Origin: a virus
Taxonomy: Duplodnaviria > Heunggongvirae > Uroviricota > Caudoviricetes
DNA length: 22,463 bases
Strand: one strand, 5' to 3'
Virus record (IMG/VR): IMGVR_UViG_3300022468_000286
The position numbers were made by a program, and so were the translations under genes. The notes below the pieces were generated by a model. It ran no database searches, was not told the origin of the DNA, and was given only the letters and a program-made list of their open reading frames with translations. This document shows positions 4,823-13,138 of the stretch, piece after piece. Positions within the stretch are counted from its first letter, which is position 1. Each line of letters opens with the position of its first letter.

Positions 4823-5484
4823 ATTATAAAGTAAATAAAGCTCAAGACGACGAAGATGATTTTGTTCAAGAGAAGAACACTCTGGGGTATTTCGTAAAGA
4901 CTCAGGTGGCAAATCAGTACACGGTGAATATTGATGAGCAGTTCGTATCTCCAAGCTACTACAGGTCAATCGTCAGTATGTTGATGAATTGCTCAGAGCT
5001 AGATACGGTGATCTTTTTGATTAATTCCCCCGGTGGTATGCTTTCAGGTCTTTTGACTCTCCTAGAGGGCCTTAAGATGACGGAAGCACAGACTATCGCG
5101 GTCATGGTAGGGGAGTGCGCCTCGGCAGCAAGTATGTTTGCTCTGCATTGCGATACTGCTTATGTCTCGGACAATGCTACAATGCTCTGTCATAACATCA
5201 GCTACGGTACTGGCGGTAAGGGCAGTGACATCCTGTCGCACGTACAGCACGTATCCAAGACCAGTGAGAAGCTGTTGCGTAAAACATACGAACACTTCTT
5301 GACACAGGATGAAATCAATGAAATGATCAATGGTCGGGAGATTTATCTTGATTCAGAAGAAATCAAAGAACGATTGGATAAGCGCCAAGCCCTTCTAGAA
5401 GCACAGGAGCAAGAAGAGCAGAAGCCTCAACCAAAGAAGACCAAACGAACCTCTAAGAAGGCAGAGGTAGAAACCAAGGAGTGA
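4819..5484 (+). CDS. ClpP-like serine protease subunit
   Basis: FLINSPGG, ECASAAS (catalytic Ser), MLCH (catalytic His); ATGA overlap with phoH. Confidence 0.85.
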   Translation: MNYKVNKAQDDEDDFVQEKNTLGYFVKTQVANQYTVNIDEQFVSPSYYRSIVSMLMNCSELDTVIFLINSPGGMLSGLLTLLEGLKMTEAQTIAVMVGECASAASMFALHCDTAYVSDNATMLCHNISYGTGGKGSDILSHVQHVSKTSEKLLRKTYEHFLTQDEINEMINGREIYLDSEEIKERLDKRQALLEAQEQEEQKPQPKKTKRTSKKAEVETKE

Positions 5485-5975
5485 TGATGCAACCAGAAAG
5501 ACTTAGACAAATCCTTGACTATGACCCTCTTTCTGGTATAATCAAAAACAAAAGAACAAAGAGAGTCTTGCAAGCGGATCATGATGGTCTTGTTATTGTA
5601 TTTGACTCTCTTGCTAAAAGAAGTTTTAAACTGAAGTTAGACCGAGTGGCTTATGCTATGGCTTTTGGAGAGTTTCCCAAGGAAGACTATAAAATACTTC
5701 ATAGGAACCTGAACTCTCAGGACAATCGCTTAAATAATCTCCATGCTGTCAGCCGCAAGGTCTTCCTTCAGATTAAAGAGGCTCATAAGAACCTCTCTAG
5801 TGGTATAAGACTAGCACCTCATCCTACGGATCAGTTTGCTTATGTGCTTTACTGGTATGAGGGAGGTGTTGAGAGGACGAAACTTCTTCAAGATATTGTG
5901 CCAGCGAGAGAATTGCAGTTGAAACTTCAGTTGAAGTACAGTAAAATACTGACAAAATACTGTATTTTTGATTAG
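5481..5975 (+). CDS. HNH-like endonuclease, probably degenerate
   Basis: LDYDPLSG N-terminus and RVAYAM...ILHRNLNSQDNRLNNL resemble phage HNH_3 proteins with altered catalytic spacing. Confidence 0.6.
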   Translation: MMMQPERLRQILDYDPLSGIIKNKRTKRVLQADHDGLVIVFDSLAKRSFKLKLDRVAYAMAFGEFPKEDYKILHRNLNSQDNRLNNLHAVSRKVFLQIKEAHKNLSSGIRLAPHPTDQFAYVLYWYEGGVERTKLLQDIVPARELQLKLQLKYSKILTKYCIFD

Positions 5976-5990
5976 ATTACAAAATTTAAC

Positions 5991-6019
5991 TTGTATTTAT
6001 AGATAGAGCATGTTATAAT
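5991..6019 (+). promoter_or_regulatory. Sigma70-type promoter at the start of the RNA island
   Basis: TTGTAT-17-TATAAT with TGn extension. Confidence 0.7.
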
Positions 6020-6030
6020 AAATTTTATTG

Positions 6031-6179
6031 ATCTTAGCAAGCGCAAATAAAAACGAGCGTAAAGGTGGTTTTTACTCTCCTTTCACTACCGGCTGCGCTT
6101 AATCATAAAATGCTGACTGCTAAGATGTAAATCGGGTATCCTCGCTTAGGCTTGGGGTATCGCGGGAACCGTAACCCGC
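6031..6179 (+). ncRNA. Candidate structured ncRNA
   Basis: Begins just after the promoter; ATCTTAGCA/TGCTAAGAT (6031-6039/6118-6126), AGCGCA/TGCGCT, and a 3' hairpin GCGGG-AACCGTAA-CCCGC; no ORF. Confidence 0.45.
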
Positions 6180-6211
6180 TATATTAACCTAACATAAAAA
6201 TAATAACAAAC

Positions 6212-6397
6212 ATGATTTGTACTTCCTGTAAATCTTACTATCGGCGTTCCGCATGGAATCCCTCTAAGTATTGTGAAAAATGCTTTGATGAAACAAAAGA
6301 CGCTGATGAGTATTCTTTAGCTTCGGATGATGATTCTGTAGAGATTGATAGTATTTTGAATCCTACAGGGAAGACACAACCTAAGTTTTATGATTAA
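6212..6397 (+). CDS. Small zinc-finger protein (61 aa)
   Basis: CxxC...CxxC followed by an acidic tail. Confidence 0.65.
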   Translation: MICTSCKSYYRRSAWNPSKYCEKCFDETKDADEYSLASDDDSVEIDSILNPTGKTQPKFYD

Positions 6398-6398
6398 T

Positions 6399-6473
6399 GC
6401 GTGCTGAGTTTTGTTGGTAAAACACTAGGCTTCCACCCTTGAGTCATCGGTTCGATCCCGATAGCCCGCGCCA
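6399..6473 (+). tRNA. tRNA-Gly(UCC)
   Basis: Cloverleaf; loop CT-TCC-AC; TTCGATC T-loop; CCA end. Confidence 0.9.
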
Positions 6474-6581
6474 GAATTGGAGATTTGATCAATCTCAAAG
6501 CAACGGCAGTATTGATTCCTAGAAATACGATTCTTTAACTTGCGGAAAGTAGTTGCACAGCAGAACCTAAGCTGCTACAAT

Positions 6582-6658
6582 GTGGGCATAGCACAGTCTG
6601 GTTAGTGCATCTGGTTGCCATCCAGAAGACTTCGGTTCAAATCCGAATGCTCATACCA
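6582..6658 (+). tRNA. tRNA-Gly(GCC)
   Basis: Cloverleaf; loop TT-GCC-AT; CCA end. Confidence 0.9.
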
Positions 6659-6663
6659 ACCCC

Positions 6664-6692
6664 TTGACACAAGGTTGGAAGTCAGTTAAAAT
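6664..6692 (+). promoter_or_regulatory. Internal promoter of the tRNA array
   Basis: TTGACA-17-TAAAAT. Confidence 0.75.
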
Positions 6693-6700
6693 TACGGAAT

Positions 6701-6776
6701 GCTTCATTAGCTCAATCGGGAGAGCGCGACACTGTCACTGTCGAGGTAAGGAGATCGAAACTCCTATGAGGCGCCA
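6701..6776 (+). tRNA. tRNA-Asp(GUC)
   Basis: Cloverleaf; loop CT-GTC-AC; T-loop ATCGAAA; CCA end. Confidence 0.92.
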
Positions 6777-6789
6777 AGTTTTGGGTTTT

Positions 6790-6858
6790 GGGTATTGGGA
6801 ATGTAGGCTCTGGTGAGAACCACCAACCGGGCGGGTTTAACTCCCGTCATATCCACCA
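6790..6858 (+). ncRNA. Anticodon-less tRNA-like element (pseudo-tRNA)
   Basis: Acceptor GGGTAT/ATATCC, discriminator A and CCA; T-arm GCGGG-TTTAACT-CCCGT; central hairpin TGGT-GAGA-ACCA instead of an anticodon arm. Confidence 0.6.
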
Positions 6859-6876
6859 AAGAATTATCAGAAAGTC

Positions 6877-6905
6877 TTGACAAGAAATTAGGGCTTTGTT
6901 ATAAT
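6877..6905 (+). promoter_or_regulatory. Consensus promoter inside the tRNA array
   Basis: TTGACA-17-TATAAT with TGn extension. Confidence 0.9.
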
Positions 6906-6914
6906 TCAGTTTAT

Positions 6915-6989
6915 GCACCATTCGTCTAGAAGTTAGGACGCTGGCCTTTCAAGCCGGAAACAGGGGAGCGTTACCCCTATGGTGTACCA
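6915..6989 (+). tRNA. tRNA-Glu(UUC)
   Basis: Loop CT-TTC-AA; non-canonical T-loop AGCGTTA; CCA end. Confidence 0.88.
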
Positions 6990-6997
6990 ATTATTAA

Positions 6998-7074
6998 GCG
7001 AGATTAGCTCAGTGGATTAGAGCAGGTCACTACGAATGATCAGGTCGGGAGTTCAAGTCTCTCATTTCGCTCCA
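6998..7074 (+). tRNA. tRNA-Arg(ACG)
   Basis: Loop CT-ACG-AA; canonical arms; CCA end. Confidence 0.93.
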
Positions 7075-7080
7075 AGTTTT

Positions 7081-7178
7081 AGGTTAGTTACAGCAACTCA
7101 AATTATTCTTACCATTATCAAGAACGAAGGGTTCGACTCCCCCGTAAAAGTGCTCGGAGCACGAAAAGCTAACCTGTT
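7081..7178 (+). ncRNA. ACAGCAA-stem element, copy 1
   Basis: AGGTTAGT-T-ACAGCAA ... GCTAACCT-GTT; internal T-arm mimic GGG-TTCGACT-CCC. Confidence 0.65.
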
Positions 7179-7186
7179 TTATTTAT

Positions 7187-7264
7187 TGGTCATTAACTCA
7201 GTTGGTTTAGAGTATCGGACTTTTAATCCGAGAGTCATCGGTTCGAGTCCGATATGACCTACCA
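7187..7264 (+). tRNA. tRNA-Lys(UUU)
   Basis: Loop CT-TTT-AA; U1:U72 mismatch; CCA end. Confidence 0.92.
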
Positions 7265-7267
7265 GAT

Positions 7268-7342
7268 TCATCGTTGCCGGAGTGACTACGGAAGTGATTG
7301 CAAACCACTTTTAGATGGGTTAAAATCCCATACGATGATCCA
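7268..7342 (+). tRNA. tRNA-Cys(GCA)
   Basis: Loop TT-GCA-AA; U73 discriminator; T-loop TTAAAAT; CCA end. Confidence 0.85.
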
Positions 7343-7349
7343 AAAATTT

Positions 7350-12340: not shown

Positions 12341-13138
12341 ATGAACAACGATCACTATGTGTACTTGCATAGACGAAAAGACAACGGAATTGTATTCTAC
12401 ATTGGGCATGGAAGGCTAAACCGGGCTGAAACTCAAAGAAAAAGAAGTAAAAGCTGGGGTGAAGTAGTAGAGCGTGCTGGCGGTTTTGATATTGAATACT
12501 TATCAACATGTCTTTGTAAAAATGCAGCAATCAAGTTGGAGAATGATTTACTCAGGAGCCCGAACTTAGAGTGGAATCTGGTGAACATTGCTCCTGCAAG
12601 AACTACACATGAACTGTCCAAGGAATTAATTGAAGATTTTTTGGAATATGATGAGACAAGTCCATCAGCACTGCGTTGGAAGAAAACATTCGCGGCTAAT
12701 ACCAGAAAAAATTTAATTGCAGGACATTTAGAGGTTAAAGGGTATTGGACGGTCAGGCTAAATGGGACCTCTTATCAGGCCCACCGATTAGTTTGGGTGC
12801 TGCATAATAACAGTATTGATTCAAATTTAGTTATTAATCATATTGATAACAACAGGTCCAATAATCATATTTCAAACCTAGAGCCTGTCACGAATGCAAA
12901 TAATTCTCGTAAGAGTTTAAGGAATAAGAATCCACTGGGTGCTGGAATTAATTTTTCTATTGTCGCAGGTAAGTATGAATATTGGATTGCCTATGTTTAC
13001 GATCTTGCTAGTAGGCGTTTTAGTAAATCTTTTAATTGTAAAGAACATGGACACCAAAAAGCTAAAGAACTAGCTGAACAATGGAGATTTGATCAACTTC
13101 GCATTTTAAATAGCCAAGGCGCGGAATATAACCTATGA
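12341..13138 (+). CDS. Homing endonuclease with GIY-YIG-like N-terminus and HNH C-terminus
   Basis: YVYLHRRKDNGIVFYIGHG and YQAHRLVWVLHN...INHIDNNRSNNHISNL; ATGA overlap with terL. Confidence 0.85.
   Translation: MNNDHYVYLHRRKDNGIVFYIGHGRLNRAETQRKRSKSWGEVVERAGGFDIEYLSTCLCKNAAIKLENDLLRSPNLEWNLVNIAPARTTHELSKELIEDFLEYDETSPSALRWKKTFAANTRKNLIAGHLEVKGYWTVRLNGTSYQAHRLVWVLHNNSIDSNLVINHIDNNRSNNHISNLEPVTNANNSRKSLRNKNPLGAGINFSIVAGKYEYWIAYVYDLASRRFSKSFNCKEHGHQKAKELAEQWRFDQLRILNSQGAEYNL

What the first reader, a model, noticed from the sequence alone, without database searches (positions are those of the whole stretch)
7081..7178. Detached fourth ACAGCAA element between tRNA-Arg and tRNA-Lys, carrying a T-arm mimic
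Seen: the same scaffold occurs 1.4 kb upstream of the cluster and occupies a slot in the array as a tRNA gene would. It shares the 17 nt TAGTTACAGCAACTCAA with copy 4. Both carry T-arm-like hairpins: GGG-TTCGACT-CCC here (same loop as tRNA-Leu(UAG)) and GTGAG-TTTCGATTT-CTCAC in copy 4. Two further hairpins are present (TTCTT/AAGAA, GTGCT/AGCAC). Inference: a copy away from the protein gene argues for a trans-acting RNA rather than a cis leader, and suggests two subtypes, T-arm-bearing and anticodon-bearing.
Basis: partly seen in the sequence, partly recalled or inferred. Interest (0 to 1): 0.72.

Follow-up and report, generated by a model that had tools for sequence, protein, structure and literature searches.

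The report
Phage tRNA-mimic partner of Ro60-like protein
A freshwater-type phage carries, in a slot between two tRNA genes, a conserved ~97-nt RNA built from shrunken tRNA parts and closed by a short 'handle' that occurs only in relatives that also encode a Ro60-shaped ring protein, so it is probably that protein's partner RNA; the handle also resembles the unexplained 'Class I' RNAs of social amoebae.

Summary
The element is real. It is one of four copies in the window of a 9-bp closing stem plus RCAGCAA ('handle'). Eight orthologues lie in the same slot, 5' of tRNA-Lys(UUU), and keep all four helices by compensatory changes. The nearby gene 8749-10215 (DUF2828/DUF7788) folds as a full Ro60 ring. 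Handles occur in 13/13 close relatives carrying that gene and in 0/36 relatives lacking it (207 tRNAs scanned). Copies swap between the gene's leader and the tRNA slot, so a cis leader is unlikely. The interior is best read as a reduced, circularly permuted tRNA: anticodon-arm relic, invariant T-loop, no acceptor arm, shrunken D-arm relic. About 30 full-size permuted versions occur in other phages. 'Two subtypes' is too few, and copy 4's hairpin is not a canonical T-arm. It is not a YrlA member (no GNCGAA motif, no Rfam hit). It shares the handle of Dictyostelium Class I RNAs but scores below the Rfam cut-off. Expression and binding are not shown. The scan found this RNA-protein family before on other DNA (163 notes). 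New here: the subtype's anatomy, the co-absence control, and candidate RNAs in laboratory phage Bas63.

The parts
7081..7177 (+). The element: handle-closed small RNA with a three-hairpin tRNA-derived payload (predicted product about 97-110 nt)
   Evidence: eight orthologues in the same slot
7081..7089 (+). 5' arm of the closing stem (pairs with 7167-7175)
   Evidence: 98.8% of cells paired, 2 pairs with double changes, 4 pair types at one position
7090..7096 (+). Unpaired ACAGCAA motif, invariant in 9/9 orthologues; putative protein-binding site with the stem
   Evidence: binding inferred
7106..7124 (+). Hairpin 1 (5 bp, 7-9 nt loop), at the anticodon-arm position of the family's permuted tRNAs; loop no longer canonical
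   Evidence: 100% paired, 2 pairs with double changes; position comparison
7125..7144 (+). T-arm mimic: loop UUCGAYU invariant, 3-4 bp upper stem, bulged A, 2-bp extension
7150..7162 (+). Hairpin 3 (5 bp) with invariant GG in its loop; probable shrunken D arm
   Evidence: five different stem sequences all pair; comparison with D arms of full-size family members; D-arm identity is inference
7167..7177 (+). 3' arm of closing stem ending CUGU, the same end as Class I RNAs
6877..6905 (+). 12/12 extended sigma-70 promoter-like site ahead of tRNA-Glu, tRNA-Arg, the element and tRNA-Lys; no + strand terminator-like site in 5900-8800
6998..7074 (+). tRNA-Arg(ACG), 5' neighbour
7187..7264 (+). tRNA-Lys(UUU), 3' neighbour
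8465..8493 (+). Promoter-like site (10/12) ahead of the three-copy cluster and the protein gene
8505..8558 (+). Handle RNA copy 2, minimal, anticodon-loop-like hairpin (UUC); best Class I score, 24.9 bits
8568..8630 (+). Handle RNA copy 3 (GCAGCAA), anticodon-loop hairpin of Lys(UUU) type
8638..8717 (+). Handle RNA copy 4, UUCGA in a non-canonical 9-nt loop
8749..10215 (+). DUF2828/DUF7788 protein (488 aa) with a full-length Ro60 (TROVE + vWA) fold; putative partner

Best explanation
The element is a Y-RNA-like partner of the phage's Ro60-shaped DUF2828/DUF7788 protein. Step 1 (sequence shown, processing inferred): it is transcribed inside the tRNA precursor from the promoter at 6877-6905 and is released when host enzymes mature its neighbours (RNase P at the 5' end of tRNA-Lys, cleavage and trimming after the CCA of tRNA-Arg). 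Step 2 (inferred from co-occurrence and from Ro60/Y RNA precedent): the closing stem plus single-stranded ACAGCAA docks on the protein ring, as the other three copies do. Step 3 (structure shown by covariation, role inferred): the payload is a cut-down circularly permuted tRNA that keeps a canonical T-loop and a GG-bearing D-arm relic but has lost the acceptor arm, so it cannot be charged; it most likely presents a tRNA-elbow-like surface that tethers or distracts host tRNA-handling enzymes or nucleases, and gates the ring. Step 4 (inferred from a 37%-identical homologue): the particle serves in counter-defence or RNA-end protection during infection. I put step 2 at about 0.75 and the elbow/tether role at about 0.4.
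For: Fold: AlphaFold model pLDDT 88, pTM 0.87; the 13 best PDB matches are all Ro60/TROVE, TM 0.49-0.63, E 1e-10 to 9e-7. Co-occurrence: handles in 13/13 relatives fetched by the protein and 0/36 relatives fetched by terminase that show the whole tRNA island without the gene (153 kb, 207 tRNAs). Across viral contigs a handle + T-loop pattern gave 70 hits against 17 for a permuted control; 31/67 vs 1/15 of those records hold the gene (Fisher p = 0.007). Structure: 93% of cells paired, 9 pairs with double changes, 0/500 shuffles reach it, slid controls 40-55%; MFE of all nine orthologues has the same three hairpins. Payload: of 60 T-arm handle RNAs about 30 have the YrlA order T arm - acceptor hairpin - D arm, with intermediates that shrink (L106, L130) or lose (L134, L114) the acceptor hairpin. 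Precedent: bacterial Y RNAs mimic tRNA, come in several copies near Ro60 and are co-transcribed with tRNA (PMC4201824); a phage Ro60 binds its Yrl RNAs and host PNPase (PMC12135203); Bas63 gp130, 37% identical, counters the Ppl defence (bioRxiv 10.1101/2024.10.10.617714).
Against: No expression or binding data (no sequencing-run tool or genome for this window). The known Ro-binding motifs GNCGAAN0-1G and GGUCCGA are absent. gp130 alone, from a plasmid or from T7, counters Ppl, so the RNAs are not needed for that activity. The nine orthologues are related and several double changes come from one event (L099/L194). The D-arm relic loop is only 3-6 nt in most copies, possibly too short for an elbow contact, and RNAalifold prefers pairing that loop with the 3' side of the T stem. 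About half of the more distant DUF2828 loci showed no handle in a crude 9-bp scan. Records in the co-occurrence tests are not phylogenetically independent. The only protein shown to bind the look-alike Class I RNA is an RRM protein (PMC7919456).
Confidence: 0.72

Rival explanations
1. It is a trans-acting RNA, but the handle binds another (host or phage) protein and the link to the Ro60-like gene reflects a shared cassette only.
For: Class I RNAs with the same handle bind the RRM protein Rnp1A; gp130 works without phage RNAs against Ppl; canonical Ro motifs absent.
Against: Strict co-presence and co-absence with the gene, enrichment in unrelated phages, and a Ro60 fold whose known ligands are 5'/3'-stem RNAs.
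Confidence: 0.12
2. Hairpin 1 plus the T arm form a nicked acceptor-T minihelix with NCCA in the loop, a substrate or decoy for RNase P, the CCA-adding enzyme or 3'-end nucleases.
For: Hairpin 1 runs into the T arm with no spacer and 12 nt separate its loop from U54 in all nine copies; the loop starts with RCCA in 7 of 9. M. smegmatis YrlA is cut by RNase P and gets CCA.
Against: Loop starts AGCA in L096 and GCUA in L194; the helix is 10-11 bp with a bulge, not 12 bp; CCAU is a family-wide motif at the start of anticodon-arm relics, and the hairpin before the T arm is an anticodon arm in other members.
Confidence: 0.1
3. Cis-acting element: processing signal, attenuator or autoregulatory operator in the tRNA precursor, bound by the protein to control downstream tRNA-Lys or its own mRNA.
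For: Three copies lie directly ahead of the protein gene; the slot next to tRNA-Lys(UUU) is conserved.
Against: 36 relatives process 207 tRNAs without any handle; copies move between positions and lie downstream of the gene in Bas63 and others; no terminator-like site; elaborate conserved payload is not needed for an operator. A secondary autoregulatory role for the leader copies is not excluded.
Confidence: 0.05
4. Decaying tRNA pseudogene, chance hairpins, or part of the overlapping 73-codon ORF 7036-7257.
For: Folding z-score only -1.0; relaxed ARAGORN calls some orthologues poor tRNAs.
Against: Covariation in all four helices; invariant unpaired motif; orthologue lengths 94-105 nt in all three frames; the ORF overlaps two tRNA genes.
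Confidence: 0.02

Closest known systems
Bacterial and phage Y RNAs of Ro60/Rsr: YrlA (Rfam RF02553), YrlB, Yrn1 (Chen et al. 2014, PMC4201824); phiLo Yrl1/Yrl2 (PMC12135203)
   Same: Near a Ro60-fold gene on the same strand, several copies, 5'/3' closing stem with an adjacent conserved single-stranded motif, tRNA-like module with a T arm, co-transcription with tRNA; full-size family members have the same permuted order T - acceptor - D.
   Different: Motif is ACAGCAA, not GNCGAAN0-1G; protein is DUF2828/DUF7788, 13-17% identical to solved Ro60s and without a Pfam TROVE hit; this copy lacks the acceptor hairpin and has a shrunken D arm; no RF02553 match.
Dictyostelid Class I RNAs (Rfam RF01414; Kjellin et al. 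2021, PMC7919456)
   Same: Short 5'/3' stem starting with G, 11-nt motif (9/11 identical, all five near-invariant positions kept), CUGU end, variable interior; all four window copies give weak RF01414 matches (16.7-24.9 bits).
   Different: 95-97 nt against 42-65 nt; below the 41.5-bit cut-off; stem-to-motif distance one base shorter; tRNA-derived payload; no DUSE promoter; phage host; Class I was reported as unique to dictyostelids and binds an RRM protein.
Felixounavirus Bas63 gp130 (PhageMaP, bioRxiv 10.1101/2024.10.10.617714)
   Different: The authors guessed that some annotated tRNAs are Y RNAs and did not describe these RNAs; Bas63 has no orthologue of this subtype (model R1 gives no hit).

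Membership tests
YrlA / bacterial Y RNA (RF02553) | Encoded within about 4 kb of a Ro60 orthologue, same strand | tested here: met
   1.57 kb upstream of 8749-10215, whose model matches Ro60 over its full length; it is a divergent family, not Pfam TROVE
YrlA / bacterial Y RNA (RF02553) | GNCGAAN0-1G (or GGUCCGA) motif near the 5' end | tested here: not met
   no match in any of the four copies
YrlA / bacterial Y RNA (RF02553) | Long stem joining 5' and 3' ends | tested here: met
   9-10 bp, covarying
YrlA / bacterial Y RNA (RF02553) | tRNA-like domain in the order T arm - acceptor stem-loop - D arm | tested here: not met
   T arm present, acceptor hairpin absent, D arm reduced; met by about 30 other family members
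YrlA / bacterial Y RNA (RF02553) | Score above the Rfam cut-off | tested here: not met
   no RF02553 match at E up to 10
YrlA / bacterial Y RNA (RF02553) | Bound by the Ro60 protein; pseudouridine at the T-loop | not testable with these tools
   needs immunoprecipitation, EMSA, CMC primer extension
Dictyostelid Class I RNA (RF01414) | 11-nt motif next to the 5' stem with near-invariant U3, C6, C9, A10, A11 | tested here: met
   7086-7096 keeps all five, 9/11 identical to the consensus
Dictyostelid Class I RNA (RF01414) | Short terminal stem, conserved 5' G, CUGU 3' end | tested here: met
   G7082 pairs with C7174; CUGU at 7174-7177; 8 of 9 orthologues end so; register one base shorter
Dictyostelid Class I RNA (RF01414) | Length 42-65 nt | tested here: not met
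   95-97 nt; copies 2 and 3 (52-63 nt) would meet it
Dictyostelid Class I RNA (RF01414) | Score above the Rfam cut-off (41.5 bits) | tested here: not met
   19.1 bits for this element, 16.7-24.9 for the others; weak matches also ring in 8 of 14 control genomes at E up to 10
Dictyostelid Class I RNA (RF01414) | DUSE promoter element about 60 nt upstream | not tested
   eukaryotic promoter element; the 60 nt upstream are tRNA-Arg
tRNA (RF00005) | Cloverleaf with 7-bp acceptor stem and 3' NCCA | tested here: not met
   not called by ARAGORN or cmscan in the window
Ro60 fold (partner protein) | Helical-repeat ring closed by a vWA domain | tested here: met
   weak sequence support PF25045 E 9e-4 and PDB TROVE E 0.002

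The most novel reading that the evidence does not exclude
DUF2828/DUF7788 proteins and ACAGCAA-handle RNAs form a second, undescribed Ro60/Y-RNA-type particle with a modular display of tRNA parts (this element being an acceptor-less elbow mimic) used by phages in conflicts over tRNA and nucleic-acid ends; and dictyostelid Class I RNAs descend from the same family, which would name a candidate partner for an RNA class unexplained for twenty years.
Probability: 0.35. Interest if true: 0.85.

Novelty: new variant of a known kind. Interest (0 to 1): 0.66.

Why it matters
The protein family is in at least 711 cultured phage records, including Felixounaviruses, Listeria, Staphylococcus, Campylobacter and mycobacterial phages, and one member counters a bacterial defence, yet no RNA partner is in Rfam or in the papers I could search. 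If the handle RNAs are its ligands, the definition of Y RNAs widens to a second binding motif with interchangeable tRNA-like payloads, many 'empty' gaps in phage tRNA arrays become genes, and the question can be tested at once in Bas63/E. coli. The match to Class I RNAs would challenge their claimed restriction to social amoebae and suggest which protein to look for.

Tried and rejected
No genome held for the window and no sequencing-run tool: no expression evidence. BLASTN of the island against cultured phages found only tRNA pieces; the closest cultured relative by terminase, Limnohabitans phage DC31 (73%), has neither the gene in this island nor handles. An exact 21-mer scan of viral contigs found one locus; a pattern for T arm + hairpin 3 found only a false positive. 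ACAGCAA at 2956 overlaps a promoter-like TTGACA and has no stem; the five other matches are in coding DNA without a strict stem. Single-sequence PDB search found nothing. The CCA-minihelix idea was raised and downgraded. An anticodon-CAU reading of hairpin 1 was rejected (no U33, no purine 37, loop 7-9 nt). The alternative pairing of the T-stem 3' side with the hairpin-3 loop is 2-8 kcal/mol worse than the three-hairpin fold but not excluded. Literature searches for DUF2828 with Ro60, TROVE with YrlA, and ACAGCAA with phage tRNA found no description; the Wolin 2020 review was not held, so prior description cannot be ruled out. Whether dictyostelids encode DUF2828 could not be established (searches list viral clusters only). 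Complex prediction was not used: it does not take RNA.

Full report
Setting. The window is part of a tailed phage: PhoH, Clp protease, a tRNA island of about 24 genes, then terminase and portal. The closest cultured relative by terminase is Limnohabitans phage DC31 at 73%, which suggests a freshwater betaproteobacterial host (inference). Inside the island lies gene 8749-10215, which hits DUF7788 (E 3e-41), DUF2828 (E 1e-22), weakly vWA_Ro60 (E 9e-4) and PHROG 850 'RNA-binding protein'.

Observation. The element is a 9-bp stem (7081-7089 with 7167-7175), ACAGCAA directly after the 5' arm, and three inner hairpins. It sits 6 nt after tRNA-Arg(ACG) and 9 nt before tRNA-Lys(UUU), the same spacing as its tRNA neighbours. 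A perfect extended sigma-70 site at 6877-6905 precedes the run and no terminator-like site interrupts it. The motif alone and the folding energy alone are near chance; the combination is not: four copies in the island, at most one in 1000 shuffles (the scanner was designed from these copies, so the independent tests below matter more).

Conservation. Fetching loci by the protein and by patterns gave eight orthologues (L001, L094, L096, L098, L099, L178, L194, L202), all 5' of tRNA-Lys(UUU), directly or with one more handle RNA in between. A covariance model separates them cleanly (98-122 bits) from other handle RNAs (45 bits or less). On the MAFFT alignment 93% of cells pair, nine pairs change on both sides, no shuffle of 500 reaches this and slid structures pair 40-55%. 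All nine fold by MFE into the same four-way junction, and hairpin 3 pairs with five different stem sequences. The sequences are related and some changes come from a single event, so this shows a selected structure, not a p-value. Lengths of 94-105 nt in all frames exclude the overlapping ORF.

The partner. The AlphaFold model (pLDDT 88) matches only Ro60/TROVE structures in its 13 best hits, over the whole length, TM 0.49-0.63 at 13-17% identity; language-model features agree once its own families are skipped. Handles follow the gene. All 13 close relatives fetched by the protein carry one to six handle RNAs. None of 36 relatives fetched by terminase, with the whole island visible and no gene, carries one (153 kb, 207 tRNAs). 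In unrelated viral contigs a handle + T-loop pattern is four times as frequent as a permuted control and 31/67 versus 1/15 of the records hold the gene. Caveat: many distant DUF2828 loci showed no handle in a crude scan that needs a long stem.

Trans or cis. Copies that are in the gene's leader here are in the tRNA slot in L098 and L096. In Bas63 all four copies lie downstream of the gene between tRNAs. The element is separated from the gene by nine tRNA genes and a second promoter.

The payload. Among 60 handle RNAs with a T arm in my loci, about 30 have the order anticodon remnant - variable loop - T arm - acceptor hairpin - D arm, which is the YrlA permutation (PMC4201824). L106 and L130 have a 3-bp acceptor hairpin; L134 and the L114 group have none and a shrunken GG-loop hairpin instead. 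The element fits the end of that series. Hairpin 1 stands where the anticodon arm stands (12 nt from U54 against 13-14 in full members) but its loop is no longer canonical. The T-loop is invariant. Hairpin 3 keeps an invariant GG and, in most copies, the GUG/CAC stem seen in several family D arms. I therefore read it as an acceptor-less tRNA-elbow mimic; this is inference, because the loop may be too short and a three-way change (alignment columns 50, 69, 80) also allows that loop to pair with the T stem. Notably, eight or more of the phage's own tRNAs have rewired T-loops while this RNA keeps the canonical one, as a decoy or tether for host elbow-binding proteins would. Copy 4 shares the stem end but its UUCGA loop lacks G53-C61 and expands in relatives; copies 2 and 3 display anticodon loops whose anticodons change between phages. 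There are more than two subtypes.

Mechanism. Most likely the RNA is cut out during tRNA maturation, docks by its handle on the Ro60-like ring, and uses its tRNA-like face to tether or distract host enzymes, as Y RNAs gate Ro60 and tether it to PNPase. The Bas63 homologue gp130 (37% identity) counters the Ppl defence, a 3'-end exonuclease system. gp130 does so without phage RNAs when moved to T7, so the RNAs are more likely regulators or serve against other systems than obligatory cofactors. None of these steps is shown experimentally here.

Known families. It works like a Y RNA but is not a YrlA member: the Ro motif, the acceptor hairpin and the Rfam score all fail. The best Rfam match of all four copies is the Dictyostelium Class I RNA: same stem-plus-motif design, all five near-invariant motif positions, G start and CUGU end, but length and score fail and such weak scores also occur in control genomes. 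Shared ancestry is plausible, not shown. I found no paper describing the phage RNAs.

Earlier notes. After forming my reading I looked up the scan's notes: 163 report the same RNA-protein family on other DNA, several with the Class I link. They are unchecked AI notes and I do not count them as evidence; I borrow the word 'handle'.

Verdict. Real, conserved, structured RNA; new variant of a known kind (Ro60/Y-RNA-like); partner assignment 0.72; interest 0.66.

Noticed in passing
window 6399-11662: At least eight tRNAs (Glu, Ile, Gln, Phe, Asn, Ala, Ser-UGA, Met) have non-canonical T-loops with G or C at 55-56; default ARAGORN misses Cys, Ile, Gln, Phe, Asn, Ala, Tyr, Ser-UGA and Met.
   Followed up: partly
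window 6790-6858: Short CCA-ended tRNA-like element with a T-loop-like hairpin and no D arm, between tRNA-Asp and the promoter; only a 13.7-bit tmRNA match.
   Followed up: no
window 6029-6127: Non-coding stretch closed by a 9-bp stem just after a promoter-like site ahead of the island; possible further structured RNA.
   Followed up: no
window 7950-8110: About 160 nt of non-coding, G+C-richer sequence in a tRNA-sized slot between tRNA-Phe and tRNA-Trp, no Rfam match.
   Followed up: no
window 11665-11850: Non-coding, apparently structured stretch after tRNA-Met, no Rfam match.
   Followed up: no
window 7187-7260: tRNA-Lys(UUU) has a U1.U72 mismatch at the first acceptor pair.
   Followed up: no
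L100 about 7650-7770; L103 about 7850-7960; L202 and L194 just 5' of the orthologue: Whole tRNA bodies (D arm, T arm, acceptor, CCA) with a handle or handle-like insertion in place of the anticodon arm, in or near the tRNA-Arg slot.
   Followed up: partly
alignment A2 columns 50, 69, 80 (window 7125, 7144, 7155): Three positions change together in L099/L194, keeping both the T-stem extension and an alternative pairing of the T-stem 3' side with the hairpin-3 loop; one event, unexplained.
   Followed up: partly
L214 8070-8910 (Bas63, MZ501086 about 82070-82910): Four unannotated handle RNAs in tRNA slots; one overlaps the minus-strand annotation bas63_0137, which may be a shadow ORF.
   Followed up: partly
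L114, L118, L125, L164: About 190-nt handle RNAs in other phages with T arm, UAAAC and a CGG-loop hairpin, resembling this payload, followed by a long extra domain.
   Followed up: partly
window 7629-7781: 50-codon ORF inside the tRNA array, conserved in L001, L094, L096, L098 and L213, no family match.
   Followed up: no
window 5481-5975, 10639-11322, 12341-13138: Three HNH endonuclease genes in and around the island; relatives carry different HNH, GIY-YIG or PD-(D/E)XK genes at similar places.
   Followed up: no
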